Shown: positions 3,794-26,534, numbered from the stretch's first letter. The stretch is 64,000 nt of DNA from Armatimonadota bacterium (GCA_039680575.1 JBDKSP010000011.1:7861-71860); one strand, 5' to 3'. Program-made: numbers and translations. Notes: generated from the sequence alone by a model not told the origin.

Positions 3794-4998
3794 TGCTGTG
3801 CCTCCACAGGAACAGTATCAGCATGCATTAATTTTCTAGCGCCCAGATACGCCGCAGTTATTGCAATAATCGACCATATTCCCAGGCCGGTCATCTGCAC
3901 TCCAAGGTCACTTATCGTTGCGCCCATCATGGTTATCTTACGCACCAGTATCACATAGTAACTTAATGGCAATGAGTATGCGACGATACGCATAACAAGC
4001 GGCATTGCGAAAACCGGCCATGTATTGCCGGAAAGCAGATAGGATGGCATTACCACTACCGCGAACACTTCCGTCGTCATCAGGGAATCACCGATCAGTG
4101 ATGAAAGACCTATTCCAAATAAGATCCAGACAGAAAGGAACCACGCAGTCATCCCTGTCAGCAGCCACAGATCACCGATCATGGGAGCGCCTACCATTAG
4201 GGTAGGGATAGCCAGTGCCAGCATTGAGACGGGGAGCATTATGATTATATATGGTATGGCTTTTCCGATGATTACTGCCAACGGTGAATGTGTGATCGAC
4301 CTGAGCCTGGCAAGTGTGCCATCTTCAAATTCCCTTGCTCCGCATCGAGCTACCAAAAGAACCGTCAACAGTTGGATTGATACGACGACGAACCCGACCA
4401 GCATGAAGTTTGCATAGTTGTAGTTCAAAGACGGATTGAACAATACTCTGCTTTCTGATCGAACAGGTTGGACAACCGACATCGCTGAACTCGCGGATGC
4501 TCTTCCTCGCAGCAGTGATTTTCTTATATCGACACCCACAGAGTATGTACCGATGATCGATGATGCGCTGTTGATGGCGACATTGCCGATAAGTATGTTG
4601 CTCGCGTCAACCCACACAGCCACTTTGCTGCCTCGCCCCGATTTTACATCTCGCTCGAAATGATAGGGGAAGACAAAAGATATATTGGACTTGTCTGTTG
4701 CTGCCTGCGCTGGAAAATCATCTGTAGAATCGCTGTACTGCGCCAACCGGAATGTCTCTGATGCCAGAATGCCCCTTGTGATCTCGCGTGACAGGGCTGA
4801 ATTATCCTGATCCACTATTGTAACAGGGAGATTTGTCACTTTCTTGTTCCAATAGACTGTTCCGAAGAACAATGCGTAAGCAATCGGAACAAGAATCGCA
4901 AGGGCAAACATGCTGCGCAAATGAAATATAGCACGAAATTCCCGCAGCATAACATTCCATATTGTTCGTAACATAGCGTGTTCCATTCCCCTGGGCAA
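3790..4998 (-). CDS. ABC-2 type transporter permease, a paralog of the downstream gene
   Basis: The 402-aa product has the same architecture as 2645-3793. The two genes overlap by 4 bp, which suggests translational coupling. Confidence 0.8.
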   Translation of the reverse strand: MPRGMEHAMLRTIWNVMLREFRAIFHLRSMFALAILVPIAYALFFGTVYWNKKVTNLPVTIVDQDNSALSREITRGILASETFRLAQYSDSTDDFPAQAATDKSNISFVFPYHFERDVKSGRGSKVAVWVDASNILIGNVAINSASSIIGTYSVGVDIRKSLLRGRASASSAMSVVQPVRSESRVLFNPSLNYNYANFMLVGFVVVSIQLLTVLLVARCGAREFEDGTLARLRSITHSPLAVIIGKAIPYIIIMLPVSMLALAIPTLMVGAPMIGDLWLLTGMTAWFLSVWILFGIGLSSLIGDSLMTTEVFAVVVMPSYLLSGNTWPVFAMPLVMRIVAYSLPLSYYVILVRKITMMGATISDLGVQMTGLGIWSIIAITAAYLGARKLMHADTVPVEAQQ

Positions 4999-5088
4999 GT
5001 TATATGAACCAGGCGTATCCGATTGTCAGTGCGGTAATGTTCAGACCATGATTCGGATAATCCGGATTTACATGTTCAACTGCGCTCA

Positions 5089-6324
5089 TTATCTTCCGAC
5101 TTTCTGCATATATGGCAAACGGACTCGTGCAGTCATGCCGGTTCTCAGTTCAGGACAATCCTCCGTAATGCGGACAACAACTTCTATCGATCTGACATCG
5201 TAAGAGTTTTGCTCATTAGTTGCTTTCTTTGTAGCGAAATCCGCTGCTTGCGATATCCGGGCAACTCTACCGCGTATTTTCTTGTTATTCAGGGCTGGGA
5301 TTATCACCTGGACATCGTTACCCAACTGCAATTTTCCGAACTTGGACTCATCCGCGAATACCTTAACCTTGAAGTCCTTGCTCTTAACCAGTGTAAGCAC
5401 CGGGAAACCGGCGGATACCATTTCGCCGGTCTCGGACATTTTCTGCGACACATAACCAGTAATTGGCGATACGATCCTGGTTTCATCCTGATATGCCTGG
5501 GCTTCATTGAGCTGTCCTTTCGCTGCTGAAGCCTTATATGACGCAGCGACAACATCCTGCGCGCGAAGAGACACTTGCAGTGCACTATCCTGAGCAAGTT
5601 GCAGAGCCGCCTGAGCTGCCTTTACGCCTTCGCGTGCCTGTTGGATTTCCTCCGGCCTCGCGCCTTCCTTAACAAGACTCAGTTTTGCCTGCGCAGCCTC
5701 CATCTGGGCTTTAGCCGATTTGTATTGGAACGCGATCTCATCTTCTTTTTGCTCAGGAATCACTCCATCCTTATACAGCCCGTTAAATCTATCGTATGTG
5801 CGTTTTGCTGTTTCGTAAGCCGCGGTTGCCTGTTCGACTGCCTTCTGAGCCGCCTCGATCTCCTGTTTGCGCGCACCATTCAAAGCCATAGCAAGCTTGG
5901 CCTTTGCAGCTTTATAACCGGCTTTTGCCTGCTCGACCTGATCCTGAACGGTTTTTGACTGTAAATCCACTGCAATTCGGGCTTGTGAGTGCTGAACCTG
6001 TGCAGCCTGATACATTCCCGAAGCCTGTTCGACCTTCGCGCTGGTCTCCTTCGATTCTAGTACCACGAGCGTCTCACCCGCCCTGACAGGATCACCCTCA
6101 TCGAGGTTCAATACGCTGATTCTGCCGGGGATTTTCGATGAGACATCAACCTCGTCAGCCTCCAGAGTTCCCTCAAGAGTTGCATAACTGTTCGCGTTCT
6201 TTGCAGGAATCGCAACTCGGGGCGAATTGTGTTTGATGAGCGCGATCATTGCAATCAATAGCGCGATAACCAGGGCAATTCCTATGACCGCTGCCTTGAA
6301 ATTTCGGCTTGCTGATCTCATCAC
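5089..6324 (-). CDS. HlyD-family membrane fusion protein (periplasmic adaptor)
   Basis: N-terminal TM anchor, biotin-lipoyl-like hairpin and a long Ala/Gln/Lys-rich coiled coil. There is a 4-bp overlap with the upstream OMF gene. Confidence 0.8.
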   Translation of the reverse strand: MMRSASRNFKAAVIGIALVIALLIAMIALIKHNSPRVAIPAKNANSYATLEGTLEADEVDVSSKIPGRISVLNLDEGDPVRAGETLVVLESKETSAKVEQASGMYQAAQVQHSQARIAVDLQSKTVQDQVEQAKAGYKAAKAKLAMALNGARKQEIEAAQKAVEQATAAYETAKRTYDRFNGLYKDGVIPEQKEDEIAFQYKSAKAQMEAAQAKLSLVKEGARPEEIQQAREGVKAAQAALQLAQDSALQVSLRAQDVVAASYKASAAKGQLNEAQAYQDETRIVSPITGYVSQKMSETGEMVSAGFPVLTLVKSKDFKVKVFADESKFGKLQLGNDVQVIIPALNNKKIRGRVARISQAADFATKKATNEQNSYDVRSIEVVVRITEDCPELRTGMTARVRLPYMQKVGR

Positions 6325-13933: not shown

Positions 13934-16555
13934 ATGCGTTATGGAAAAGATGAAGGTGAATATATGGACACAAAGATTACTGATCGCGATATTGTAAGGA
14001 TACTGTGGGCGAAATCGAACCCGCCTCACCCCCTCTGGTGTCATCTGCTGGATACCGCTGCTGTGTGCGAGCAGCTTATAAACTGCTTTGGCTGCCCCGA
14101 AGATATTCCACCTCTATGGACAATGTATCTGGCGGCGCTCCACGATATAGGGAAAGCAGATTCGGAGTTTCAGGAACAGCGTGGCGAGGGATTCAGGCAT
14201 GAATCGATGTCTGGAGACTGGGTATACAGATATTTGACCAGTGCCGATCTGGACTGGGGCGAATATGCCGCAAAACTCGCAGAAGCGGTGCTTCGAAGCC
14301 ACCACGGAAACTTTAAGCCGAAGCCTTGCGGTCATCCAGCCGATTACAACACCTGGGAAGGCATTCGTCTGCAGCTTGCCGAGATAGTCGCGGATGCACT
14401 TAATTTGCATAGTGAACCGTTTTCCCCGCCCGCTTTCGGCAATTCAAGCTCCACCGGAGTCAAACTGATCGGACTGACTGTCCTGTCGGACTGGATCGCA
14501 TCAAACGAAGAGCTTTTCCGCTATCATCTCATCGACAACAACTTGAAACCCCAGGAATACTGGCAGAATGCACAGGTAAATGCAGCCCGCGCTGTCGAGA
14601 CGCTTCAGTTGGACCAGCCGGTCAGCCCAATCCAAGGGAATGAGACCCCTTCTTTTCGTGACATCTGGCCGGATATCCAAGAGCTGAAGCCGTCACAGAG
14701 GACTATCGAAGAATCCTGCATAAAAGGTATTCCTCCGGGGCTTGTTATCATCGAAGCGCCTATGGGAGAAGGCAAAACGGAGTCCGCGATATATATCGCC
14801 GAGTGCTGGAGGAGAAAATACGGCACTAAAGGGACCTATATCGCGCTTCCAACTATGGCTACAAGCAACCAGATGCACCATAGATATAGCGAATTCCTGT
14901 CCAATCGTCGCCCCGCTGTCGGTGCTCCTCGGCTGGTGCATGGGATGGCGTGGCTGATCGATAATACCTCGCCTGATAACGGCCCGGATACGTTCGGTGA
15001 TGACCCGAATGAAGAACAGTTACTCGCGCGTGAGTGGTTCAGCCCCTCGAAGCGGGCATTGATCGCGCCGGAAGGCGTCGGAACAATCGATCAGGTCCTT
15101 ATGGCTGCGCTGAACGTAAAGCACGGCTTCCTGCGGCTGCTTGGAATCTCCTCGAAGACGCTTATTATCGACGAAGTCCACGCATACGATGAGTATATGA
15201 CGGTTATCCTCGAACGGCTCCTCGAATGGTGCAGGACGCTCAAAATACCCGTAATTATGCTCTCAGCCACGCTTTCAAAGCCGCAGAAAGAGCGATTGAT
15301 CGAGGCATATCAGGGAAAACCGGATGATTGTCCCGCGTACCCGCTCATTACCATAGTCCCGATGGATGGGAGTGAGACAAAATCCATATCTGTCGAAGGG
15401 CAAAAGACTCGAAAAGTGCTGGTGGAGCAGCATCCGGGTATGCTGGATGATCCAAAAGCCGCCGCTGATCTGGCAGTTGAGCTGGTAAAGGATGGCGGCT
15501 GCGCATGTGTGCTGGTGAACACCGTAAAGCATGCCCAGGCCGTCTATAAAGAGCTAAAGGAACTGCTTCCCGACGAAAAAGAACGCTATCTATTCCATGC
15601 AAGGTTCCCTGCATGGAGAAGAAATGAAATAGAAGAACAAATAGGAGGAAGTAAGGACAAGGGAAGAATCGGCTTGTTCGGCAAAAAGGCTGTAGAGAAA
15701 GGGACTCGGCCAACGAAAGCAGTGCTTGTCGCCACTCAAGTCGTCGAGCAGAGCATCGACCTGGACTTCGATGTCATGATCTCACAGCTTGCCCCAATCG
15801 ACCTATTACTTCAGCGGACAGGCAGGCTTTGGCGGCATAGAGAAACCGATGCTTTTCGCCCGCCGCATCTGAAAGATACACTTCATATACTTATGCCGGA
15901 CCGTACGCTGGGGGACTCGAAATATGTTTACGGAGAATCAGCGCTTCTTCGTACAATGGCGATTCTTGAAAACCGGAATGTGTTCAACCTCCCGGATGAT
16001 TTCAGGCCGCTGATAGATGATTGCTACGGGGATAGGTGCGTTATAGGCAGTATGGTTTCGGAGCGGATACAGCGGCTGGCTGACGCTGAGGCTGAGATAA
16101 AGAAAGAAATGAGCGCAGGAAAAGCGTCCTTATGCCTCATACCGCTCCCTTCTGATCGAGAGTTCTCTCTTGTAAGGCCAAACGCCGCTATATTAAGGAA
16201 TGAGTCCGATGGAGATACGGCCAGCTACTTCAACACGAGCACGCGGCTGGACAGCAATACCTGCCCGGTTATGCTGCTGGAAGACCCAGTGCTGATTGCA
16301 GCGGCGCATAAGAAGAAAACTCCCCCGAAAGATGTGCTTAAAGAGCTGTTCCTTAACAAAGTGGACATTCCGTCTTCCTGGATCAGAGATGCTCAACCGG
16401 CGGACGGATATGGACCTCTGTTTTCAGACGCTAAGTGGCTTCGCCGGACAACCGTGATCCCGCTCATCGACAGCAAATGGAGGGGGATACGGCAAGGCAA
16501 GAATTTCGAGATAACTGTGGATGATATTTTGGGAGTGGAGGTTGGGTGCCAATGA
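13934..16555 (+). CDS. cas3: CRISPR-associated helicase/nuclease Cas3 (type I-E, HD plus DEAH helicase)
   Basis: N-terminal HD nuclease motifs (HLLDTAAV..LHDIGK). Helicase motif I is APMGEGKTESA and motif II is IIDEVHAY. It is the first gene of the cas operon. The alternative start MDTKI at 13964 is also possible. Confidence 0.93.
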   Translation: MRYGKDEGEYMDTKITDRDIVRILWAKSNPPHPLWCHLLDTAAVCEQLINCFGCPEDIPPLWTMYLAALHDIGKADSEFQEQRGEGFRHESMSGDWVYRYLTSADLDWGEYAAKLAEAVLRSHHGNFKPKPCGHPADYNTWEGIRLQLAEIVADALNLHSEPFSPPAFGNSSSTGVKLIGLTVLSDWIASNEELFRYHLIDNNLKPQEYWQNAQVNAARAVETLQLDQPVSPIQGNETPSFRDIWPDIQELKPSQRTIEESCIKGIPPGLVIIEAPMGEGKTESAIYIAECWRRKYGTKGTYIALPTMATSNQMHHRYSEFLSNRRPAVGAPRLVHGMAWLIDNTSPDNGPDTFGDDPNEEQLLAREWFSPSKRALIAPEGVGTIDQVLMAALNVKHGFLRLLGISSKTLIIDEVHAYDEYMTVILERLLEWCRTLKIPVIMLSATLSKPQKERLIEAYQGKPDDCPAYPLITIVPMDGSETKSISVEGQKTRKVLVEQHPGMLDDPKAAADLAVELVKDGGCACVLVNTVKHAQAVYKELKELLPDEKERYLFHARFPAWRRNEIEEQIGGSKDKGRIGLFGKKAVEKGTRPTKAVLVATQVVEQSIDLDFDVMISQLAPIDLLLQRTGRLWRHRETDAFRPPHLKDTLHILMPDRTLGDSKYVYGESALLRTMAILENRNVFNLPDDFRPLIDDCYGDRCVIGSMVSERIQRLADAEAEIKKEMSAGKASLCLIPLPSDREFSLVRPNAAILRNESDGDTASYFNTSTRLDSNTCPVMLLEDPVLIAAAHKKKTPPKDVLKELFLNKVDIPSSWIRDAQPADGYGPLFSDAKWLRRTTVIPLIDSKWRGIRQGKNFEITVDDILGVEVGCQ

Positions 16556-18120
16556 ATAAGACTTTTAACCTACTAAAAGAACCCTGGATTCATGTAGTCC
16601 AGGACAATGAGTTAGTGGAGATGAATCTCCGCGATGTTTTGTGCTTGGCGGACAAGATATCGGAAATATCCGATCCGCTGCCGATAGTGGAATTCGGCCT
16701 TTCCCGACTGCTCGTTGCGCTCGTTATGGATGTTTTTCACCTCTATGACAGCCGCGACAGTTTCGGCCTGAGGGACCTGCTGAATACCGGTCATTTCGAC
16801 CCCGCGCAGATAGATGAATATTTCGAAGTAAACGGTCCCTACTTCGATCTGTTCGACGCCAAAAGGCCATTCCTGCAGATGGCTGATGTCGACAGCCCGG
16901 TAAAGCCACTTTCCGGGCTTCTATCATGCGTCCCATCAGGGACGGCAGCAACTCACTTTCACCACTACGGTGAAATGGAGTTCAGCGTATCCCCAGCCGC
17001 GGCGGCCAGGCTTCTTACTACGATTGCGCCGTTTATGACCGCAGGCGGCGCGGGACTGGCTCCGTCCATCAACGGCGCTCCACCCTGGTATGTGCTTGTC
17101 AGGGGAGAGAACCTGTTCGAGACCATCTGCCTGAACTGCTTTGTCGGGAATACCGGGTTATCAGGCGATGCTCCGCCTGCATGGAGGAACCCGCTGCCGC
17201 CAAAGACCGACGGCCGGTGCGCGGGTGCAAGCCTGCCGGAAGCATTGACCTGGCGGCCAAGGCTGATACAGCTCATTCCTGGTAACTCTGGAGTCTGTTC
17301 CATGTCAGGCGAGGAGTGCGATGTTCTCGTCCAGACGATGAGATTCAAGGCAGGAGCATCCTGCAACTTCGCATGGACCGACCCCAATGTGCCGTATAAG
17401 TACTCAGAAAAAGGGGCGCTGGTGATGAGACCGCAGGACGGCAGGGAGATCTGGCGCGACACCGGGCCGCTCGCGCTCTTGAACGATAACGCATATAAAT
17501 CTTCGGATGCCAAAGTGAAATTCTCCCGTCCGCTGATTGTCGACCAGTTCCAGGAGTTATATAGCCACAAGGATAAACCGTTCTCTTTTGCCGTCTATGG
17601 TATGCGGACCGATATGAAGATGAAAGTCTTCGAGTGGCAAAAGGAAGTCCTTTCCGTTCCTGTAGAGTTGGTCATAGGTCAGAACCACGCAATCTTTGCG
17701 CAGGACTTTATCGACGAAGCGGACAAGGTAGAATACGCGCTGAGAAAAGCGATAAAGCATCTCTACCCCAGGGACGGCGCGGGCAACTCGAATGCGTTCG
17801 AGTCGGTGATTGCCAACGCCAGGCGGCAATACTGGTCGCACCTTCGACCTCACTACAATGACCTGCTAAAGGAGATGGCCAAGCATTCTGAGGATGAATT
17901 GGCCGAAGCTAAATATGCGCTTCAGGACGAGTGGCGCACTCACGAGAAAAAGGCCGCTATGGAAGCATTCCATACCGCATCGGAGGATTTGGACACCTAC
18001 GCAGAGAATATCCGGCGTCAGGCTGAAGCCGGACGGCAACTGCAATCTTCTATAAATGGCGTGTTTTTGAGCCCGGAAGAGAAAGCGGCGAGAAAGAAGT
18101 CCAAAACAAGGAGGAAATGA
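16546..18120 (+). CDS. casA: Cascade large subunit Cse1/CasA
   Basis: 524 aa. It follows cas3 with a 10-bp overlap and is followed by cse2. Size and position are canonical for I-E. Confidence 0.88.
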   Translation: MPMNKTFNLLKEPWIHVVQDNELVEMNLRDVLCLADKISEISDPLPIVEFGLSRLLVALVMDVFHLYDSRDSFGLRDLLNTGHFDPAQIDEYFEVNGPYFDLFDAKRPFLQMADVDSPVKPLSGLLSCVPSGTAATHFHHYGEMEFSVSPAAAARLLTTIAPFMTAGGAGLAPSINGAPPWYVLVRGENLFETICLNCFVGNTGLSGDAPPAWRNPLPPKTDGRCAGASLPEALTWRPRLIQLIPGNSGVCSMSGEECDVLVQTMRFKAGASCNFAWTDPNVPYKYSEKGALVMRPQDGREIWRDTGPLALLNDNAYKSSDAKVKFSRPLIVDQFQELYSHKDKPFSFAVYGMRTDMKMKVFEWQKEVLSVPVELVIGQNHAIFAQDFIDEADKVEYALRKAIKHLYPRDGAGNSNAFESVIANARRQYWSHLRPHYNDLLKEMAKHSEDELAEAKYALQDEWRTHEKKAAMEAFHTASEDLDTYAENIRRQAEAGRQLQSSINGVFLSPEEKAARKKSKTRRK

Positions 18121-18123
18121 GCA

Positions 18124-18813
18124 GTGATCGAAACACCGACTGATACTCCGGTTGTTCCAGAGGAAACCCAAAATGATTACCTTGCTTACGATCTGAAGTT
18201 TATCTGTGATCTGGCGAAGCATCTGAATGGCGACAGAGGCAAGGCTGCCATGCTTCGCAGAAACGCGGGGAATACAATCGCGGAATCGAGAAACATCGAT
18301 TGGTTCTTCCACCTGCTTGGCGGACGTCCCATCACACGTCTGAATGATGGTACGTTCAAAGACGAAGAGGCCTATTTCGTCATTTCGACGCTGTTTGCAT
18401 CGGACAAAGCCAGTATCGAGTGCTTTGCTGATAAAGAAGCTGAGACGAAGCCGGCTAACGGCAATTTCGGTTACACGCTGTACCGGCTTAAAAAGAAGAT
18501 ATGCGATGTGGAATCTGCAGAAAAGACATTCGACCGCAGGTTCGGCATCCTTCTCGATGCCGATTTCGACCCGCAGCTTGGCGGAAGCCTTTCGTTCAGA
18601 CTCAGGCAGATGACAAAGCGTGTAATCGCTGAGAAAGACCCTGCATTAAGTATCAACTGGCCGCAGTTGTTGCGCGATATAAAGCGCTGGAACGGCAGTA
18701 AAAAGCCCACTCAGAAGAGCTGGGCGCGCAGCTATTATGCACCGGTTTTCAAGTCCAGCGACGAGAAACCGGAATCGGACGAAAAACAAGACCACATACA
18801 AGGAGATTATTAA
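18124..18813 (+). CDS. casB: Cascade small subunit Cse2/CasB
   Basis: 229 aa with a GTG start 3 bp after the casA stop. It lies between cse1 and cas7 as in E. coli. The product is helical and rich in Arg/Lys. Confidence 0.8.
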   Translation: MIETPTDTPVVPEETQNDYLAYDLKFICDLAKHLNGDRGKAAMLRRNAGNTIAESRNIDWFFHLLGGRPITRLNDGTFKDEEAYFVISTLFASDKASIECFADKEAETKPANGNFGYTLYRLKKKICDVESAEKTFDRRFGILLDADFDPQLGGSLSFRLRQMTKRVIAEKDPALSINWPQLLRDIKRWNGSKKPTQKSWARSYYAPVFKSSDEKPESDEKQDHIQGDY

Positions 18814-18814
18814 A

Positions 18815-20005
18815 ATGCTTATCGAAATTCATATACTTCAGAACCATTCACCTTCAAACCTGAACAGGGACGATACCGGAAGCCCTAAGGAGGCTATTTT
18901 CGGAGGTTGGAAGCGGGCGCGTATATCCAGCCAGTGTCTGAAGCGGAGCATCCGCAGGTCCGGCATATTCCAGCAGGAGATGAATGGTCATCTAGCCAAT
19001 CGTACCCGGCGGCTGCCGGAACTCGTGCGGGAAAGGCTCATCGCAGGCGGAGTCCCGGCGGAGTTGGCTGAAATCGCCGCCAGGAAGGCATCCGGCTTCG
19101 GCAACAACAAAAATTCGGAGCAGAAAGCGGATAAAGACGGCAAGTATGCGACGGCTCAGACGATGTTTCTTACTGATAAGGACATCGACGCCGTTACGGA
19201 GGTGCTGAAAGAGGCAGCGCTGGCAGCCGGGACGCCCGAAAAGTTCGAGGCGGACAAGACCAGCTATCAGGAGAAGGCCAGACCGTTAGGTTATCGCCCG
19301 GTCAGCGTGGATATAGCGTTATTCGGCAGGATGATTACTTCAGAGGCCTTCAGAGACTGCGAAGCCTCCGCGCAGGTGGCACACGCCATCTCCACTCATA
19401 AAGTCGAGCACGAATATGACTACTTTACAGCCGTGGACGACCTGAAAGGGACAAGCGAAATCGAGGAAGATGCCGGAGCCGATATGATAGGCGATGTGGA
19501 GTTCAATTCCGCCTGTTATTACAAGTATTTCTCGATAGATTTCGAAGGGTTCGTTGCAAATCTCACGGGTGAGTGCGCAGGGAGAAAAGATATTTCCAAA
19601 AACGAGAAAGACGATGCCTCCGATCTCGCTGCGCGGGCAGTTGGCGCACTGCTGAAAAGCGCCGTCTTTACGACTCCATCCGGTAAGCAGAACACTTTCG
19701 GCGCAAATCAGCTCCCGGCTGCGGTACTTGTCGAAGTGAGGCCATACAATACTCCTGTCAATTACGCTAACGCATTTGCAGAGCCCGCGAGATACGCCGC
19801 TGACGGAGGACTCGTAAAAGATTCCATAAACAAACTCACAAAGCACATTTCGGCCTTGACAAAAGGTTTCAACCTGGAATCGAAAGCTCGTTTCCTGCTT
19901 GCGCCGGAATACCCGGAATGCACCATCGAAGGCGTGGGTGTCACCAAAGTCTCTGACATGAATGCCTTGTGTGAGCAGGTGAAGGGTGTGATCCTAAATG
20001 GGTAG
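18815..20005 (+). CDS. casC: Cascade backbone subunit Cas7e/CasC
   Basis: AAGGAG RBS. The start is MLIEIHILQNHSPSNLNRDDTGSPK, which is the conserved Cas7e N-terminal motif. Length 397 aa. Confidence 0.9.
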   Translation: MLIEIHILQNHSPSNLNRDDTGSPKEAIFGGWKRARISSQCLKRSIRRSGIFQQEMNGHLANRTRRLPELVRERLIAGGVPAELAEIAARKASGFGNNKNSEQKADKDGKYATAQTMFLTDKDIDAVTEVLKEAALAAGTPEKFEADKTSYQEKARPLGYRPVSVDIALFGRMITSEAFRDCEASAQVAHAISTHKVEHEYDYFTAVDDLKGTSEIEEDAGADMIGDVEFNSACYYKYFSIDFEGFVANLTGECAGRKDISKNEKDDASDLAARAVGALLKSAVFTTPSGKQNTFGANQLPAAVLVEVRPYNTPVNYANAFAEPARYAADGGLVKDSINKLTKHISALTKGFNLESKARFLLAPEYPECTIEGVGVTKVSDMNALCEQVKGVILNG

Positions 20006-20750
20006 ACCGGTGCTTCTGCTCAGGCTGGAGGGGGTTTGGCAGTCCTGGGGGGAGAGATCGCGGTGGGATGTCCGCGATACCGGGACGGAGCCGACCAAGT
20101 CAGGTATAGTTGGGCTGCTTGGCTGCGCTCTTGGCTACCCAATGCGCGACCCACGGCTGGAAAATGAGCTCGATGCAGGGCTGCGCTTCGGCGTCCGGGT
20201 GGAAAACGCCGGGCGTGTGGTGCAGGACTATCAGACCGTGAGCGGTTTTCTTCCCACAGCCGAAGGCTCTTACCGTCACATGGGGGCAACAGCGAAATCG
20301 CTTGACAAACTTAAAAATTCTCCCGATGTGACACCATCGACGATAGTATCTCCTCGTTATTATCTGGAAGACGCCTCGTTTTTGGCGGCGTTGGAAGAAA
20401 AAGACGGCTTCAATGGGCTGCTGTCGAAGTGCGAAGCCGCCCTAAGAGAGCCGAAATGGCCGATATTTCTTGGACGAAAGGCCTGTGTGCCTACAAGGCC
20501 GGTATTGGAGAGGTTTATTGATGACTACAGTAGTATAGAAGAAGCGTTGGAGCAGTATGAGTGGTCGTGGCTGCGTTCATGCAAGGAAGACCGCAGCGAT
20601 CTTCGTCCGAAAAAGCTGGCTGTAATGATCGAAACGGCAAATGGCGAGCTTTGGCGGCAGGATGTGGTGCAGATGAACCAGGCAAGGCAGTATGGGTTCC
20701 GCCGCGTGCATTCTTACACTGTCAATACCCCGGCAGGAGGTGAGTCCTGA
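19998..20750 (+). CDS. casD: Cascade subunit Cas5e/CasD
   Basis: The N-terminus [46 protein letters not shown] is diagnostic for Cas5e. There is an 8-bp overlap with casC. Confidence 0.9.
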   Translation: [250 protein letters not shown]

Positions 20751-21364
20751 TGTATTTGTCCATGCTTCAGCTCAACCCGCGCTGTAAACAGGTGCAGTCT
20801 GAGATTTACGACCCTTATCAGATGCACCGCACACTCTGTAAGGCGTTCGGGGATGATGAGGAATCCTGGAAGAACGCGAGAGTGCTCTTCCGTGTAGATG
20901 AAACGAACGGAGGCTGCAAACTCTGCGCGTTGGTGCAGTCGAAATTGCGCCCCGATTGGACGAAACTGACTGTTCCCGGCAATTACCAGGTCGATGAGCC
21001 TAAATTGAAGGAAGTCCAGTTCGCTCTTGAAACAGGCCAGAGGTTGGGCTTCCGGCTCAGGGCAAATCCGACCGTAAAGCGCGATGGAAAGCGTGAAGGG
21101 CTCTATAAAGAGGAAGAACAATATGAATGGCTGAGGAAAAAAGGCGAACACGGCGGATTTACCGTGCTGAACGCGATAGCGAGAGCGGACGGTAAGCAGA
21201 AGAGCCTTACGGCTAAGGGGAAAGACGCGGTTTTACTGTCTGTGATATTCGAAGGCATACTGCAGATAACAGACCCGGAATTGTTCTTGAAAACGCTGGA
21301 GTCAGGCATCGGTTCAGCGAAAGGGTTTGGGTTCGGGCTGCTTTCCATTGCGCCGGTGAGGTAG
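20750..21364 (+). CDS. casE: CRISPR RNA endoribonuclease Cas6e/CasE
   Basis: MYLSMLQLNPRCKQ..YQMHRTL parallels the E. coli CasE N-terminus. The C-terminus is glycine-rich (GFGFGLLSI). Length 204 aa. Confidence 0.9.
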   Translation: MYLSMLQLNPRCKQVQSEIYDPYQMHRTLCKAFGDDEESWKNARVLFRVDETNGGCKLCALVQSKLRPDWTKLTVPGNYQVDEPKLKEVQFALETGQRLGFRLRANPTVKRDGKREGLYKEEEQYEWLRKKGEHGGFTVLNAIARADGKQKSLTAKGKDAVLLSVIFEGILQITDPELFLKTLESGIGSAKGFGFGLLSIAPVR

Positions 21365-21368
21365 TATT

Positions 21369-22322
21369 ATGACTCGTGATACTAAACTCAAAGACTTGCA
21401 CCTGCTGCCCAAGATCAAGGACTCGCTTTCGTTTCTGTATGTAGAGCATGCGAAGATAGATAAACATGATCAAGCCATAGCTATACATGACGCTGATAGC
21501 ATGACGCCTGTACCGGTGGCTAGCCTGGCTGTTTTGATGCTCGGTCCGGGAACGACGATCACGCATGCAGCCATCAATGCTCTGGCAGACAATAATTGCC
21601 TTGTAATATGGTGCGGAGAGGAAAATGTGCGGTTCTATGCCTGCGGGATAGGAGGCACGAGAAGCGCAAATCGACTGTTGAGGCAGGCAAGGCTCGCTTC
21701 AAGCGAAACAAGCCGTCTTCAAGTCGTGAAAAGAATGTACAGGATGCGCTTTGAAGAGGAAATTCCAGAGGAAACCACGGTCGATGCGTTAAGAGGTATG
21801 GAAGGCGCAAGAGTAAGACAGGCTTATTCCAGGCTGAGCGCAGAGACCGGTGTTGACTGGAATGGTAGAAATTACGACAGGCAAAACTGGCAAGCTGCCG
21901 ATGTGATAAATCGCGCAATATCGGCAGCGAATTCCTGTCTTTACGGGCTGTGCCACGCCGCGATACTATCGGCTGGGTACAGCCCGGCTATCGGTTTTAT
22001 TCATACGGGAAAGCAGTTGTCGTTCGTCTATGACATCGCTGATCTATATAAGGTGGACTTTACTGTGCCACTTGCATTCAAAATGGCGGCAGACCCACCT
22101 GCGCAGCTTGAACGAAGTGTAAGGCTTGCCTGCCGCGATGCTTTCAAAGAGATGAAATTGGTCAGCCGTATCATTCCTGATATAAAGCTCGTTCTTGGAG
22201 AAGTAGGAGACGAGGACGAGACGAGTCTTTTTGATAGCGATGAGGCGTTACCAGCCGAGTTGTGGCTGCCATCATGGGAAGTTCAGGATAAGGTGACGGA
22301 AGATGATGGTACTGATACTTGA
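21369..22322 (+). CDS. cas1: CRISPR integrase Cas1e
   Basis: 317 aa. The conserved YVEHAKIDKHDQAIAIHD region is present. It is followed by an overlapping cas2. Confidence 0.93.
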   Translation: MTRDTKLKDLHLLPKIKDSLSFLYVEHAKIDKHDQAIAIHDADSMTPVPVASLAVLMLGPGTTITHAAINALADNNCLVIWCGEENVRFYACGIGGTRSANRLLRQARLASSETSRLQVVKRMYRMRFEEEIPEETTVDALRGMEGARVRQAYSRLSAETGVDWNGRNYDRQNWQAADVINRAISAANSCLYGLCHAAILSAGYSPAIGFIHTGKQLSFVYDIADLYKVDFTVPLAFKMAADPPAQLERSVRLACRDAFKEMKLVSRIIPDIKLVLGEVGDEDETSLFDSDEALPAELWLPSWEVQDKVTEDDGTDT

Positions 22323-22590
22323 GAGTGTTCCATCCGGATTGCGGGGTGAGATCAGCCGATGGTTGATCGAACCGAAGGCAGGTGTGTTTGTCGGGAAAGT
22401 ATCAGCCATGGTGCGCGATAAGCTGTGGCAGAAAGCCTGCGAGCATTCTAAAGGGGGTGGGGTAACTATGATATATAGCACAAATAATGAACAGGGATAT
22501 ACATTTAGGACGTTTGGTGAAACATCGCGTTCTATTGTTGACTGGGAAGGCTTGATGCTCGTGAGGATAGACAATAATTCGTCATCCTAG
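22303..22590 (+). CDS. cas2: Cas2e
   Basis: 95 aa, overlapping cas1 by 20 bp. The stop codon is 1 bp from the first CRISPR repeat. Confidence 0.9.
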   Translation: MMVLILESVPSGLRGEISRWLIEPKAGVFVGKVSAMVRDKLWQKACEHSKGGGVTMIYSTNNEQGYTFRTFGETSRSIVDWEGLMLVRIDNNSSS

Positions 22591-22591
22591 A

Positions 22592-24145
22592 GTATTCCCC
22601 ACACACGTGGGGGTGAACCGCGGAGTTGCAGCGGCAAATGGCACAGATACAGGTATTCCCCACACACGTGGGGGTGAACCGCATTGGAATCGCGCTGTGC
22701 GGCGGCCACAAAAGTATTCCCCACACACGTGGGGGTGAACCGAGCCTCCAGAACCCATCCCACAGCAGTTACGAGTATTCCCCACACACGTGGGGGTGAA
22801 CCGATGTTTTCATTTCCCCTGCTCCTCCTTCAGATGTATTCCCCACACACGTGGGGGTGAACCGTTTATGCAGGCTACGGCCGATCTTTCCGCTGGGTAT
22901 TCCCCACACACGTGGGGGTGAACCGGGTCAATTCCTCATTTTCACGCACTAGTGATTGTATTCCCCACACACGTGGGGGTGAACCGGCCTTGAGCACTGC
23001 TGTTTCGAGTTCTGCCCTGTATTCCCCACACACGTGGGGGTGAACCGTCCGGGGTGTTGTGGTTTGTATCAACTCAGGTGTATTCCCCACACACGTGGGG
23101 GTGAACCGCAGCTCGAGCTTGCGGAAAAGCAGCAGGAGTTGTATTCCCCACACACGTGGGGGTGAACCGTCATCCGCAAACCCGATAGCGACGGTGTCGC
23201 CGTATTCCCCACACACGTGGGGGTGAACCGCCGACTGTCCGGGTAGATATGCTCTGCTATAAGTATTCCCCACACACGTGGGGGTGAACCGTTAGGGTCA
23301 CTGTAGGCACAATTCTGGCCTTGGTATTCCCCACACACGTGGGGGTGAACCGATATATTGTCCGCTGAACCGTGGGACGACAGCGTATTCCCCACACACG
23401 TGGGGGTGAACCGAACATACTTGCCGTTGACCATCCCCCAGCCGTGTATTCCCCACACACGTGGGGGTGAACCGAACTGTGCAGGGTATTGGATCGCCGG
23501 CGTCACGTATTCCCCACACACGTGGGGGTGAACCGGGGAGACAGAATCATGAACGAGCAAATACACAGTATTCCCCACACACGTGGGGGTGAACCGGTTC
23601 GCAGGTGGTTTCACGCATAAACTCAACCGTATTCCCCACACACGTGGGGGTGAACCGGGTCGCCACTCTTTCTGGCATTCAGCCGGTCAGTATTCCCCAC
23701 ACACGTGGGGGTGAACCGCAGTGCTCCCTGAGTTCCAGCGAAGCACCGTCGTATTCCCCACACACGTGGGGGTGAACCGGGAGTGCGGTGAACCCGCTGC
23801 CCCTCCAGACTGTATTCCCCACACACGTGGGGGTGAACCGACTGCCGTGAGCACAGAGAACGCTAAAACCGCGTATTCCCCACACACGTGGGGGTGAACC
23901 GCGTGTCAGCATTCGTTCGCGCAGCAGTGCAGAGTATTCCCCACACACGTGGGGGTGAACCGATAGTACCGGCACTGAAATACCGGTGCTGAACGTATTC
24001 CCCACACACGTGGGGGTGAACCGGACAAGGACAAGTTCCACTGCTTGGACGCTCTGTATTCCCCACACACGTGGGGGTGAACCGATGTAAAGGCGCAAAA
24101 CAATCTACACGAACTAGTATTCCCCACACACGTGGGGGTGAACCG
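22592..24145 (+). CRISPR. Type I-E CRISPR array with 26 identical 29-bp repeats (GTATTCCCCACACACGTGGGGGTGAACCG) and 25 spacers of 32 bp
   Basis: Strict 61-bp periodicity was counted directly. The repeat shares the I-E consensus architecture (G.TTCCCC...GGGG.TAAACCG-like) with a CACGTG-containing hairpin core. It is on the same strand as the cas genes. The minus-strand ORFs in the ORF track with recurring HPHVCGEY peptides are artefacts of repeat translation. Confidence 0.97.
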
Positions 24146-24161
24146 GACGGCATTGGCTTTC

Positions 24162-26534
24162 CTAATCCCGTTGTTTTCTTCTCACTATCAGCATCCCGGC
24201 TATGAATGCGAGCGAGGAGAAATACAGGATCATTCCGGTCCGGTATGGTGTGTTCACGTACTCCATTCTTATATCATGTTTGCCTTTGGGGAGGTATACC
24301 GCCCGGAACAGGTAGTCTGCGCACAGGACTTTTACGGGTTTTCCGTCTACCCATGCCTGCCACCGTGGGTAATATACCTCACTGAAGAACAGGTAGCCGT
24401 TTGACGCCATATCAGCCTTAACATCGAGCCTGGTATCCGAGTAGGACGTAATTACTGCCCGGTCTTTTGCCGGATTGCCCGGAACCCGGCGAATTACGTT
24501 TCTGTTTTCGAGTATTATCGTCTTTTTTGGATCAAAGTCCGGCTCTTTTATCTCTTTAAGCGCTGCGTCGGGACTTTCCGCAAGTGTCGCGCTGTGAACG
24601 GTGAAAACTCTCGGAAGCCAGTTCCTGTTGTAGTAGACAAATGACTTTCCCGCGTGGATTTCCGCAAGATGGCTGCCTGTCAATCGCTTCGTGGATAGCA
24701 CATACTTTACGTTGAGCAGGCCGACCAAAGGGGAATCATGCCGGGTAATATCAGCGCTCACTCCGACATACGCAGGCGTGTTCTGGATAGCTCCTGCGTA
24801 GGCTGCGTAACGGCCTATTGAAGTGGGATAATAGCCGTTGACGCTCTCCAGCCCGTCAAAAACCCCCTGGGCGTATTGAAATGAGTCCGTGTCCATAGGA
24901 AGTATGCGGAAGCGGTCGCTGTCGGCTTTGATGATATTTATCGCCATTCTGTCCCCGGAAGTATAGAATTTCCGCGCGTTTGTGGTGAAAAGCAGCGGAT
25001 CGGCATAAAACCACAGGTCGATAAACGATAATGCGATGAGTGCGGTCGCGGCGGCATTAAGACTGATCCATTTTCGCGTAAGAGCAGTGACTGCTAGAGT
25101 CCCTAGCGCAATAAGCGCCGCAGTCCAGGCAAGTCCCGATAGCTGCATCGCATAAAGTCCTGCCAGTTTGCCCATAACGGCTTCGGGGTTGCTCCTGGTA
25201 GAGCCGATAATGCGTTCGGCGTGCGATAATATAATGCCTTTTGCCGCCCACCAGGCCACGAGGGAGATAATTACGGCGAGAAACGAGAAAGCCATGACCT
25301 TCCTGGCCAGCACAGCCTTGCCTTGTGCGTTTTGCGTCTCCGGTTCGATGGCAGCGAGTCGCGGAGACCTGAGCCTGACCGATGATGAGATCACTATATC
25401 AGTTCCGTAAGCCGCAAGCCCCGCCATTGCGAATGTATAGAGGTAAAGTATCTTGCTTGGAGCCCGGATCATACTGAAACCGGGGATTTTGTATATCAAT
25501 TTGAAGAACGGAGTATAATCACCGAGCGCGATCAGGATAGATAAAATGGCAAGCGCCTTGAAATATCCCGCGCGGGAGTCACGCATACCGAAAAATGCGA
25601 TGATAGCGAGAATGAACGGCAGAATGCCGATGAACATCGATCCGTCCCAGTAAAGCGCGCCGAAAGCGGAGTTTTCCTGCACCGGGCTGCCCCAGAACGA
25701 GGGCGCTATAGCAGTGACGAGCTGTGCAGGAGCGAGCGAAAACGAGGATGCGAAGCTGTAGTCCGTGCCGCCTCCACGGTTGGAAAGCGCTGTTGATTCT
25801 AAAAACTGCAGGATATATGGAGAGGATATAAAAAACGTGAAAAGAAAGGCTATTACAGCGAGACCAGCGTAAACCGGGACCAGGTTGAGCTTTCGTTCTT
25901 TGGCAACCATCGGCAAAACGCGCCAGATAAAGAAGATGGCCATAGCCAGCCCGGTGTAGTAGACATATTGTGGGTGCAGCCCAAGCAGTTGAAACCCCAG
26001 GACCACACCGGTCAGAGCAGCATACCGGAACTGCCTTGTCTCGACAGCTTTGTCAAGGAACAGAAACGTGAGTGGTATCCACACGCCCGACCAGATTGCG
26101 CCGCCATGACCCGCGTATATCTTCGAGATAAAGAACGCTGAGAACCCGAAGGCCATTCCTCCGATGATGGAGCCCGTATTGCTGCGTCCGAACCTTCGCA
26201 TGAGCATGTACATAAAGACCGCGGCTCCGAATATATGGATGATATACCGCCATGTCATCTCTCTTGGGAGCGGCATTGTCAGGCACAACCAGTCCAGAGG
26301 GTAAAGAGGTATAGCGGATGTGAGAGGAAAGCCGCTCATCATATAGGGGAACCAGTCAGGTCTCACTCCGCTTTGCACAGCATGGCTGAAATACCAACTG
26401 AACGGGTAACCCTGCGTAACGATATCCATTCCGAAAATAGTACCCGGTCTGAAAATGACATTGTGGAAGATCAGCAGAGTCGAAATGGCGAAAAGCACAG
26501 CTACGGATGGACCGAAAGCAGCCTGTTTTTTCAT
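24162..26534 (-). CDS. YfhO-family GT-C-like membrane glycosyltransferase
   Basis: 790 aa with more than 12 TM helices. The C-terminal soluble domain carries the YYPRWQAWVDGKPVKV...LPKGKHDIRMEY motif characteristic of the YfhO family. It lies in a glycan locus with a GtrB-like GT2. Confidence 0.65.
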   Translation of the reverse strand: MKKQAAFGPSVAVLFAISTLLIFHNVIFRPGTIFGMDIVTQGYPFSWYFSHAVQSGVRPDWFPYMMSGFPLTSAIPLYPLDWLCLTMPLPREMTWRYIIHIFGAAVFMYMLMRRFGRSNTGSIIGGMAFGFSAFFISKIYAGHGGAIWSGVWIPLTFLFLDKAVETRQFRYAALTGVVLGFQLLGLHPQYVYYTGLAMAIFFIWRVLPMVAKERKLNLVPVYAGLAVIAFLFTFFISSPYILQFLESTALSNRGGGTDYSFASSFSLAPAQLVTAIAPSFWGSPVQENSAFGALYWDGSMFIGILPFILAIIAFFGMRDSRAGYFKALAILSILIALGDYTPFFKLIYKIPGFSMIRAPSKILYLYTFAMAGLAAYGTDIVISSSVRLRSPRLAAIEPETQNAQGKAVLARKVMAFSFLAVIISLVAWWAAKGIILSHAERIIGSTRSNPEAVMGKLAGLYAMQLSGLAWTAALIALGTLAVTALTRKWISLNAAATALIALSFIDLWFYADPLLFTTNARKFYTSGDRMAINIIKADSDRFRILPMDTDSFQYAQGVFDGLESVNGYYPTSIGRYAAYAGAIQNTPAYVGVSADITRHDSPLVGLLNVKYVLSTKRLTGSHLAEIHAGKSFVYYNRNWLPRVFTVHSATLAESPDAALKEIKEPDFDPKKTIILENRNVIRRVPGNPAKDRAVITSYSDTRLDVKADMASNGYLFFSEVYYPRWQAWVDGKPVKVLCADYLFRAVYLPKGKHDIRMEYVNTPYRTGMILYFSSLAFIAGMLIVRRKQRD

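What the first reader, a model, noticed from the sequence alone, without database searches (positions are those of the whole stretch)
22540..22660. CRISPR array starts 2 bp after the cas2 stop, with no intergenic leader
Repeat orientation (ending AACCG, matching I-E arrays) and cas gene order put the leader on the cas2 side. Repeat 1 begins at 22592 and the cas2 stop codon is at 22588-22590. In characterised I-E loci an AT-rich leader of roughly 60-100 bp with an IHF site and the pre-crRNA promoter separates cas2 from the array. Here those functions would have to lie inside the cas2 3' coding sequence (ttgactgggaaggcttgatgctcgtgaggatagacaataattcgtcatcctag). Alternatively the array is acquisition-incompetent or read through from the cas operon.
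Basis: seen in the sequence. Interest (0 to 1): 0.6.

Follow-up and report, generated by a model that had tools for sequence, protein, structure and literature searches.

The report
CRISPR array abutting cas2, minimal leader
A complete type I-E CRISPR-Cas locus whose repeat array starts one base after the cas2 stop codon; this layout is normal for a large, widespread branch of I-E systems that keep only 10-20 bases between cas2 and the array, and in this genome a stop-codon change lets cas2 read across those few bases.

Summary
The cas2 stop codon TAG is at 22588-22590, one base (A, 22591) follows, and repeat 1 starts at 22592. The array has 26 identical 29-nt repeats and 25 unique 32-nt spacers. 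A convergent gene ends 16 nt after the last repeat, so there is no room for a leader at either end.

This is not an accident of this genome. Among 74 distinct cas2-array junctions from relatives, 62 have a gap of 21 nt or less. The distance from the cas2 start codon to repeat 1 is 289-292 nt in 61 of 81 loci. In the window's own subgroup (nine loci, all 289 nt), the last 10 nt before repeat 1 form a conserved DNA motif, TCATCCTAGR. Four relatives stop at an earlier in-frame TAG. The window has TCG at that position and reads on to the TAG inside the motif.

Relatives with the same layout differ in spacers at the cas2 end and share them at the far end, so spacer acquisition is polar and active. 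I found no extra synonymous-site constraint, no promoter-like site and no terminator-like site in the cas2 3' end.

My best reading is a minimal leader-anchoring junction, with the array transcribed together with the cas operon. A published precedent exists in S. thermophilus CRISPR4. Interest is modest.

The parts
13934..22590 (+). Type I-E cas operon. cas3 is 13934-16555, cse1 16546-18120, cse2 18124-18813, cas7 18737-20005, cas5 19998-20750, cas6e 20750-21364, cas1 21369-22322 and cas2 22303-22590. The genes overlap or lie within 5 nt of each other.
   Evidence: NCBIfam type I-E models match all eight proteins above their cutoffs. Cas1 is 49% identical to E. coli Cas1, and the catalytic Glu, His and Asp motifs are kept: LRGMEGARVR, GFIHTGK and VYDIAD.
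22303..22590 (+). cas2 (95 aa). The conserved core ends at ..EGLMLVRI (codon 89, 22567-22569). The tail DNNSSS is not conserved as protein.
22579..22581 (+). TCG codon at the position where four sister lineages (L105/L106, L108, L001, L003) carry the cas2 stop codon TAG.
   Evidence: In-register comparison of nine loci, all with 289 nt from the cas2 ATG to repeat 1.
22582..22591 (+). TCATCCTAGA, a 10-nt leader-repeat junction motif (minimal leader). It contains the stop codon that cas2 actually uses (22588-22590).
   Evidence: The motif is conserved as DNA whether it is translated (WIN, L107, L104, L002) or untranslated (L105/L106, L108, L001, L003). TAG at -4..-2 is present in 9 of 9 loci and CA at -9..-8 in 9 of 9. 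Across the wider clade, A(-3) and G(-2) carry 1.6-2 bits. The E. coli leader ends TTTTAGA.
22592..24145 (+). CRISPR array with 26 identical 29-nt repeats and 25 unique 32-nt spacers. The crRNA strand is +. The 8-nt 5' handle would be GTGAACCG and the hairpin CCCCAC-ACAC-GTGGGG.
24146..24161 (.). 16-nt trailer between the last repeat and the stop codon of the convergent gene.
24162..26534 (-). Convergent 790-aa membrane-protein gene with a YfhO-like C-terminus. It bounds the array and is not part of the CRISPR system.

Best explanation
This is an intact chromosomal type I-E CRISPR-Cas locus from an Armatimonadota genome. It belongs to a large I-E lineage, defined by a Cas2e of about 90 aa and repeats of the form ..CCCCAC-N4-GTGGGGGTGAACCG. 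In this lineage the array is not preceded by a canonical leader. Repeat 1 sits in a fixed register, 289-292 nt from the cas2 start codon, which leaves only about 20 nt after the conserved Cas2 core.

The only DNA-level conserved element upstream of repeat 1 is the last ~10 nt. In the window's subgroup this is TCATCCTAGR. In most of the clade it is a T-run followed by AGT. Both resemble the TTTTAGA end of the E. coli leader.

Shown: in the window, the ancestral cas2 stop (TAG at -13..-11) has become TCG. The ORF therefore runs three more codons to the in-frame TAG that is part of the junction motif, and the whole mini-leader is translated.

Inferred: the junction motif acts as a leader-anchoring sequence that Cas1-Cas2 reads directly. 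This would resemble type II-A systems and would not need the IHF-folded ~60-bp leader used by E. coli. New spacers would still enter at the cas2-proximal repeat.

Inferred: the pre-crRNA is made by read-through of the cas operon transcript. Cas6e cleavage in repeat 1 would then separate the cas mRNA from the crRNAs.
For: Lineage-wide layout:
- Among 74 unique junctions from genomes and metagenomes, the gap is 21 nt or less in 62. The cas2 ATG to repeat 1 distance is 289-292 nt in 61 of 81 loci, although the sequence at -30..-10 carries little information.
- A cultured example is Acaryochloris marina pREC1, with a 21-nt gap and a 291-nt distance.
- Contigs of the closest relatives break 21-38 nt after the cas2 stop, that is, inside repeat 1.

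Stop-codon shift and DNA-level motif:
- One search shows this across nine independent assemblies, all in the same 289-nt register.

Polarity is retained:
- L109 and L110 have flanks 99.9% and 98% identical and a 19-nt gap. They share 5 trailer-side spacers but carry 8 versus 4 unique spacers at the cas2 end. Their trailer repeats carry an older sequence variant.
- L074 and L077 are 100% identical over the 890 nt upstream. L074 has 13 extra spacers at the cas2 end.

The system looks functional:
- Cas1 catalytic motifs are intact. The window has 26 identical repeats and 25 unique 32-nt spacers.

No embedded leader in cas2:
- There is no excess synonymous conservation in the cas2 3' end.

Read-through transcription:
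- The scans find no + strand terminator-like site between cas2 and the array and no promoter-like site in cas2. The genes are tightly packed.

Precedents in the literature:
- In S. thermophilus CRISPR4 (type I-E) the cas2 stop codon overlaps the repeat (PMC5826314, citing Carte et al. 2014), and its Cas1/Cas2-DnaQ module acquires spacers (PMC10470216).
- Type II-A systems need only the 10 bp of leader adjacent to the repeat (PMC4330368).
- 27% of surveyed I-E organisms lack IHF, and a factor-independent model has been proposed for cases where the Cas1-2 site lies next to the junction (PMC5224486).
Against: - There is no transcript or integration data for this organism or for any class member. 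The leader-anchoring role of the motif and the read-through transcription are both inferences.
- The fixed 289-292 nt register suggests that something upstream, within cas2 DNA, may matter at a set distance. Codons D80-G83 (-54..-43) show a small rise in same-codon frequency (1.2-1.3). This coincides with the position of the E. coli IAS (-50..-53, PMC5224486).
- Consensus scans for promoters and IHF sites are insensitive. The IHF pattern I used does not even detect the known E. coli site. Armatimonadota promoter motifs are unknown.
- The polarity evidence comes from relatives, not from the window's own species. Only one assembly of that species exists.
- Loss of leader-proximal units by repeat recombination could mimic leader-end gain in the L074/L077 pair.
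Confidence: 0.6

Rival explanations
1. Embedded leader. The functional leader, meaning an integration-host-factor-type bending site, an upstream Cas1-2 docking site and/or the pre-crRNA promoter, lies inside the last ~60-100 nt of the cas2 coding sequence. The conserved Cas2 C-terminal codons double as DNA signals at a fixed distance from repeat 1.
For: - The cas2 ATG to repeat 1 distance is held at 289-292 nt in 61 of 81 loci.
- Same-codon frequency rises slightly at D80-G83, at -54..-43. This is where E. coli has its IAS (PMC5224486).
- The conserved amino acids D-x-E-G-L fix two of every three bases there anyway.
- A 93-aa subgroup carries a full IHF consensus, AATCAATAATTTA, at -17..-5, spanning the stop codon.
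Against: - There is no general excess of synonymous conservation in the 3' third of cas2, whereas the 20-nt overlap with cas1 is detected by the same test.
- No promoter-like site is found in cas2.
- The window's TTGATG..AATAAT string has a 15-nt spacer and is not kept in L107.
- The IHF-like match is confined to one subclade and is absent from the window's subgroup.
Confidence: 0.25
2. Decaying or frozen array. The leader was lost, the array can no longer acquire spacers, and it is only expressed passively, if at all.
For: - None of the three cas2-proximal spacers tested matched a viral contig.
- There is no second assembly of this species to show spacer turnover.
- S. thermophilus CRISPR4, the known precedent, has not been seen to acquire spacers in its native host (PMC4330368).
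Against: - All 26 repeats are identical and all 25 spacers are unique and 32 nt long.
- All eight cas genes are intact, with Cas1 catalytic motifs present.
- The same architecture is kept in dozens of diverged lineages. Where two variants of one locus exist, they differ at the cas2 end.
Confidence: 0.08
3. Artefact. An assembly error or frameshift has extended cas2 or removed the leader.
For: The window comes from a metagenome-assembled genome. CRISPR arrays commonly break assemblies.
Against: - Nine independent assemblies share the identical 289-nt register and junction motif.
- The Cas2 model match is full length.
- The extension is explained by a single-base difference, TAG versus TCG, not by a frameshift.
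Confidence: 0.02
4. The leader is at the other end, at 24146 and beyond, and the array is read or extended from there.
For: The last repeat is not degenerate, which is unusual for a trailer end.
Against: - Only 16 nt separate the last repeat from a convergent 790-aa gene.
- The repeat orientation matches E. coli read from the cas2 side.
- Relatives show conserved spacers at the distal end and variable ones at the cas2 end.
Confidence: 0.03

Closest known systems
Escherichia coli K-12 type I-E CRISPR-1 with its IHF-dependent leader
   Same: - The cas gene order is the same (cas3-cse1-cse2-cas7-cas5-cas6e-cas1-cas2-array).
- The repeat is 29 nt and ends AACCG on the cas strand, and spacers are 32 nt.
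- Cas1 is 49% and Cas2 45% identical.
- The last bases before repeat 1 are alike: E. coli TTTTAGA|G and the window CCTAGA|G.
   Different: E. coli has 105 nt between the cas2 stop and repeat 1. That stretch holds an IHF site and a Cas1-2 docking site at -50..-53, both needed for integration (PMC5224486). Here 1 nt separates them. The corresponding DNA is cas2 codons 61-95 and shows no extra nucleotide constraint.
Streptococcus thermophilus DGCC7710 CRISPR4 (type I-E)
   Same: This is a published case in which the I-E cas2 stop codon coincides with part of the first repeat, so there is no intergenic leader (PMC5826314, citing Carte et al. 2014). Its adaptation module integrates spacers next to a leader plus one repeat in a heterologous host (PMC10470216).
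   Different: - Its Cas2 is fused to a DnaQ exonuclease, its repeat is 28 nt and its spacers are 33 nt (PMC5826314 and PMC10470216).
- It is a different I-E branch. The related L. fermentum locus has a 292-aa Cas2 and a 29-nt gap.
- I could not read the primary paper, so the details of its junction are second-hand.
Type II-A leader-anchoring sequence (S. thermophilus CRISPR1, S. pyogenes)
   Same: Only about 10 bp of leader directly adjacent to repeat 1 are required for polarised acquisition, with no host bending factor. [quoted passage not shown] This is the model that the junction motif found here resembles in logic.
   Different: It is a different CRISPR type and a different Cas1-Cas2 family. 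The II-A leader still has its own promoter in an intergenic leader. No experiment links the motif found here to integration.

Membership tests
[quoted passage not shown] | Signature genes cse1 (cas8e), cse2, cas7e, cas5e and cas6e, together with cas3, cas1e and cas2e | tested here: met
   All eight proteins match the I-E-specific NCBIfam models above their cutoffs.
[quoted passage not shown] | Repeat of about 29 nt with a stable hairpin and an 8-nt 5' handle ending ACCG, on the same strand as the cas genes, with 32-nt spacers | tested here: met
[quoted passage not shown] | Catalytically competent Cas1 integrase | tested here: met
   The alignment to E. coli Cas1 keeps the Glu141, His208 and Asp218/221 motifs. 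Activity itself cannot be tested with these tools.
Canonical E. coli-type I-E leader (IHF-dependent) | A non-coding AT-rich leader of at least ~60 bp between cas2 and repeat 1 | tested here: not met
   The gap is 1 nt, against 105 nt in E. coli.
Canonical E. coli-type I-E leader (IHF-dependent) | An IHF binding site and an upstream Cas1-2 docking motif (IAS, -50..-53) conserved as DNA | tested here: inconclusive
   There is no excess synonymous conservation. No IHF consensus is found in the window's subgroup. However, the consensus scan also misses the known E. coli site, and whether the genome has an IHF gene is unknown.
Canonical E. coli-type I-E leader (IHF-dependent) | A pre-crRNA promoter inside the leader | tested here: inconclusive
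   No sigma-70-like site is found in cas2. The scan is consensus-based, its site count is no higher than in shuffled sequence, and promoter motifs of this phylum are not known.
Minimal-leader (leader-anchoring-sequence) arrays | A short conserved DNA motif directly abutting repeat 1 | tested here: met
   TCATCCTAGR is conserved in the subgroup whether it is coding or not. A(-3) and G(-2) carry 1.6-2 bits across the clade.
Minimal-leader (leader-anchoring-sequence) arrays | Polarised spacer gain at that repeat | tested here: met
   This is met in relatives only, in the pairs L109/L110 and L074/L077. It could not be tested for the window's own species.
Minimal-leader (leader-anchoring-sequence) arrays | The motif is necessary and sufficient for integration without a host factor | not testable with these tools
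   This requires integration assays.

The most novel reading that the evidence does not exclude
A widespread branch of type I-E systems has dispensed with the IHF-folded leader. Its Cas1-Cas2 finds the first repeat using only a ~10-nt junction motif, possibly together with cas2 coding DNA held at a fixed 289-292 nt register. The array has no promoter of its own and is expressed as the 3' end of the cas operon mRNA. crRNA supply and Cas protein supply would then be transcriptionally locked together, with Cas6e cleavage in repeat 1 defining the 3' end of the cas mRNA.
Probability: 0.4. Interest if true: 0.5.

Novelty: new member of a known kind. Interest (0 to 1): 0.35.

Why it matters
The E. 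coli paradigm holds that I-E integration needs about 60 bp of leader plus IHF. It is often treated as general for the subtype. This locus and its many relatives show a natural I-E design in which almost nothing lies between cas2 and the array, yet spacer gain remains polar. That design offers a compact, host-factor-free candidate for studying how a I-E integrase picks the first repeat, and for building recording tools based on it.

There is also a practical warning for annotation. Pipelines that extract 'leaders' as the 100-200 nt upstream of arrays will return cas2 coding sequence for this clade. They will then report its codon-level conservation as leader motifs.

Tried and rejected
- Rfam scan of the whole window and a tRNA scan: nothing found.
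- Promoter and terminator consensus scans over the operon and array: the number of sites is no higher than in shuffled sequence, none lies in cas2, and there is no terminator before the array.
- Synonymous-site test for an embedded leader: negative, apart from a small bump at codons 80-83.
- IHF consensus scan: enriched only in one 93-aa subclade, and it fails on the E. coli positive control, so I do not use it as evidence of absence.
- Protospacer search for spacers 1-3 in viral contigs, with every sixth position left free: no hits. I therefore could not confirm PAM or orientation.
- Self-targeting search of all 25 spacers against the window and the fetched loci: none.
After rescanning from the start codon, only L052 and L089 (-2) remain.
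- A local RNA hairpin (22564-22588) that pairs the junction motif with the R-I-D codons: not kept in L105 or L108, so I dropped it.
- Primary papers by Carte et al. 2014 and Santiago-Frangos et al. 2021: not retrievable. Whether this clade's leader architecture has already been catalogued remains unchecked.

Full report
**What is in the window**

The region 13934-22590 on the + strand encodes a complete type I-E operon: cas3, cse1, cse2, cas7, cas5, cas6e, cas1 and cas2. Every protein matches its I-E NCBIfam model above the cutoff. The genes overlap or lie within 5 nt of each other.

cas2 is 22303-22590 and encodes 95 aa. Its TAG stop is at 22588-22590, a single A follows at 22591, and the first repeat begins at 22592. 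The repeat GTATTCCCCACACACGTGGGGGTGAACCG occurs 26 times without a mismatch at 61-nt spacing, ending at 24145; shuffles give none. The 25 spacers are all unique and all 32 nt long.

A convergent 790-aa ORF with a YfhO-like C-terminus ends at 24162, 16 nt after the last repeat. Neither end of the array therefore has room for a leader.

The surrounding genes are MutS2, a sigma-54 activator and polysaccharide biosynthesis genes, so the locus is chromosomal. The identical Cas2 sequence is on record from an Armatimonadota MAG.

**Is cas2 mis-called?**

No. The Cas2e model covers residues 1-86 over model positions 1-87 of 87. In an alignment of 24 homologues the conserved core ends at ..EGLxLVRI(P), which is residue 89 here. 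It is followed by a non-conserved tail, DNNSSS. E. coli Cas2 is 94 aa and aligns through the same core. Cas1 is 49% identical to E. coli Cas1 and keeps the catalytic Glu, His and Asp motifs.

**Comparison with the textbook case**

In E. coli K-12 the repeat has the same orientation and the same ..AACCG end. There, 105 nt separate the cas2 stop from repeat 1, and that leader ends ..TATACTTTTAGA|GAGTTCCCC.

**Relatives**

A Cas1-based scan of one genome per species returned 14 loci, mostly Armatimonadota MAGs. A Cas2-profile scan of metagenomes returned 80 more, with 57-70% Cas2 identity. All carry repeats of the same family on the cas strand.

After rescanning each cas2 from its start codon, there are 74 unique cas2-to-repeat-1 junctions. 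The gap from stop codon to repeat 1 is 21 nt or less in 62 of them. The modes are 18, 10 and 19 nt, four junctions have 1 nt, and in two the TAA stop overlaps the first two bases of the repeat.

More telling is the distance from the cas2 start codon to repeat 1. It is 289-292 nt in 61 of 81 loci, whatever the position of the stop codon. The stop codon floats inside a segment of fixed length, about 20 nt, between the Cas2 core and repeat 1.

A second, smaller class has about 85 nt more, with a start-to-repeat distance of 370-379 nt. It includes other Armatimonadota.

Named isolates span the range of gaps:

| Organism | Gap, cas2 stop to repeat 1 |
|---|---|
| Acaryochloris marina pREC1 | 21 nt (same short class, distance 291 nt) |
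| L. fermentum (Cas2-DnaQ fusion) | 29 nt |
| T. thermophilus | 60 nt |
| D. gobiensis | 68 nt |
| Ideonella | 71 nt |
| Acetobacter | 75 nt |
| Streptomyces atratus | about 104 nt |
| E. coli | 105 nt |

The window is thus an ordinary member of the short-form clade.

**The window's own subgroup**

Nine loci share exactly 289 nt between the cas2 ATG and repeat 1. They are the window, L107 (82% Cas2 identity), L105/L106, L108, L104 and L001-L004. Read in register:

- All nine have TAG at -4..-2 and CA at -9..-8. Most have TCATC(C/A/T)TAG(R/T) at -10..-1.
- The 12 nt before this motif vary freely.
- In L105/L106, L108, L001 and L003, cas2 ends at an earlier in-frame TAG (-13..-11; Cas2 is 92 aa, gap 10 nt), and the motif is untranslated.
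- In the window that codon is TCG (22579-22581). In L107 it is AAG, in L104 ACG and in L002 TGT. In these four loci the ORF continues for three codons to the TAG inside the motif, giving a 95-aa Cas2 and a 1-nt gap.

The same ten bases are therefore kept whether or not they are translated. That indicates selection on the DNA rather than on the protein. The window's 'missing leader' comes down to a single-base difference at the earlier stop-codon position (TCG here, TAG in four sister lineages), in a lineage whose extra-genic leader was only 10 nt.

Across the whole short-form clade, the positions just upstream of repeat 1 are the only informative ones: a T-run at -9..-5 and A(-3) G(-2) T(-1), at 1.6-2 bits. 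Positions -30..-10 carry little information. The resemblance to the E. coli leader end, TTTTAGA, suggests a shared junction determinant.

**Is a longer leader hidden in cas2?**

I tested this by asking how often two diverged sequences (less than 75% amino-acid identity) use the same codon at positions where they share the same amino acid. I compared this to the gene-wide expectation for that amino acid.

- The ratio is 1.2 for the first ten codons, which overlap cas1. This is the expected positive control.
- It is 0.90-0.98 across codons 10-70.
- It is 1.04-1.05 for the last twenty codons.
- There is only a small local rise, 1.2-1.3, at D80-G83 (-54..-43).

Sigma-70-type scans find no promoter-like site in cas2, and the number of sites over the operon is no higher than in shuffled sequence. 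No + strand terminator-like site lies between cas2 and the array.

The IHF consensus is found in 6 of 57 upstream segments. All six belong to the 93-aa subgroup, where AATCAATAATTTA spans the stop codon at -17..-5. None is in the window's subgroup. The same pattern misses the experimentally defined E. coli site, so it cannot prove absence.

**Is the array still being extended, and at which end?**

No second assembly of the window's species is on record, so I used relatives with the same architecture.

- L109 and L110 come from an Aminobacterium-type locus with a 19-nt gap. Their flanks are 99.9% and 98% identical. They share five spacers on the trailer side but carry eight versus four unrelated spacers at the cas2 end. 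Their trailer-side repeats carry an older variant (CCCCACATACG) that the cas2-side repeats lack.
- L074 and L077 are 100% identical over the 890 nt upstream and have a 17-nt gap. L074 has 13 additional spacers ahead of the seven shared ones, and in L077 those seven sit directly at the junction.
- L045 and L088 differ only by internal deletions.

This is the classic signature of leader-proximal acquisition. The cas2 end behaves as the leader end despite the near-absence of a leader.

**Literature**

- For E. coli, integration needs IHF, an IHF site and a Cas1-2 docking site at -50..-53. The same paper notes that 27% of surveyed I-E organisms lack IHF. It proposes factor-independent integration where the docking site adjoins the junction (PMC5224486).
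- In type II-A, the 10 bp next to the repeat suffice, and the csn2 stop codon overlaps leader signals (PMC4330368).
- Most relevant, a review citing Carte et al. 2014 states that in S. thermophilus CRISPR4, a type I-E system, the cas2 stop codon coincides with part of the repeat (PMC5826314). Its Cas1/Cas2-DnaQ module acquires spacers in E. coli (PMC10470216).
- An I-E array abutting cas2 therefore has a published precedent, although in a different branch with a Cas2-DnaQ fusion. I could not retrieve Carte et al. 2014 or the leader-motif survey of Santiago-Frangos et al. 2021. I cannot say whether the fixed-register short form has been described.

**Conclusion**

- Shown: the observation itself, its lineage-wide nature, the fixed register, the DNA-level junction motif, the stop-codon shift in the window, and polar spacer turnover in relatives.
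- Inferred: the junction motif is the leader-anchoring signal, read directly by Cas1-Cas2 without IHF. The array is transcribed as the tail of the cas operon and released by Cas6e.
- Main rival: cas2 coding DNA at a fixed distance contributes a docking site or a promoter. The fixed register and the small bump at -54..-43 keep this alive.

The finding is real but typical for its clade and has a precedent. Its value is as a pointer to a compact I-E adaptation architecture that could be tested in cultured organisms.

Noticed in passing
L038 1707-4772, L060 1404-4490, L076 (metagenome loci): Three relatives encode a single ~1020-aa protein. It has a Cas2e domain at the N-terminus, followed by a Cas3 HD nuclease and helicase domains. 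This is a Cas2-Cas3 fusion within the I-E Cas2e family, analogous to the I-F Cas2/3 fusion. No array follows the gene within the fetched DNA.
   Followed up: partly
L024, L026, L016, L069, L079 and other 93-aa Cas2 loci, -17..-5 from repeat 1: The last codons and stop of cas2, together with the 10-nt gap, read (G)AATCA(A/G)TAAnTT. In six loci this is a full match to the IHF consensus WATCAANNNNTTR; 0.17 matches are expected in shuffles. All six are in one subclade, so the matches are not independent.
   Followed up: partly
L005, L055, L057, L006, L007, L013, L009: A second class of loci, several from Armatimonadota, has about 85 nt more between the Cas2 core and repeat 1 (370-379 nt from the cas2 start). 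It has its own conserved junction, TAGACAGnTTTATG(A/T), and in three loci a GTCTACA motif near -45. In L005, L055 and L057 the cas2 ORF is extended to 119-120 aa and covers most of that stretch.
   Followed up: no
window 24117-24161: The last repeat is a perfect copy rather than the degenerate terminal repeat often seen. Only 16 nt separate it from the stop of a convergent 790-aa YfhO-like gene. The scan finds no terminator-like site between them, so array transcripts would run antisense into that gene.
   Followed up: no
L001, L003, L059, L110: first repeat: In several relatives only the first, cas2-proximal repeat differs from the rest, at its last base (..AACCT, ..AACCA or ..AACCC instead of ..AACCG). 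This is the position that in E. coli derives from the PAM.
   Followed up: no
L062 and L068 arrays: The same spacer occurs twice in one array, at positions 2 and 17 of 18, in both samples.
   Followed up: no
window 18124-20005: The longest ORFs for cse2 (229 aa, against a 167-position model) and cas7 (422 aa, with the model match starting at residue 28) overlap by 77 nt. The true cas7 start is probably downstream of 18737.
   Followed up: no
L012 (Solibacteraceae MAG): In this relative no array follows cas2. A long array of a related repeat lies upstream of the fetched cas1 instead (3178-5991 in locus coordinates).
   Followed up: no
L104-L108 (closest relatives of the window): All five contigs end 21-38 nt after the cas2 stop, that is, inside repeat 1. 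Assemblers break at the array, which is why no spacer comparison was possible for the window's nearest relatives.
   Followed up: yes
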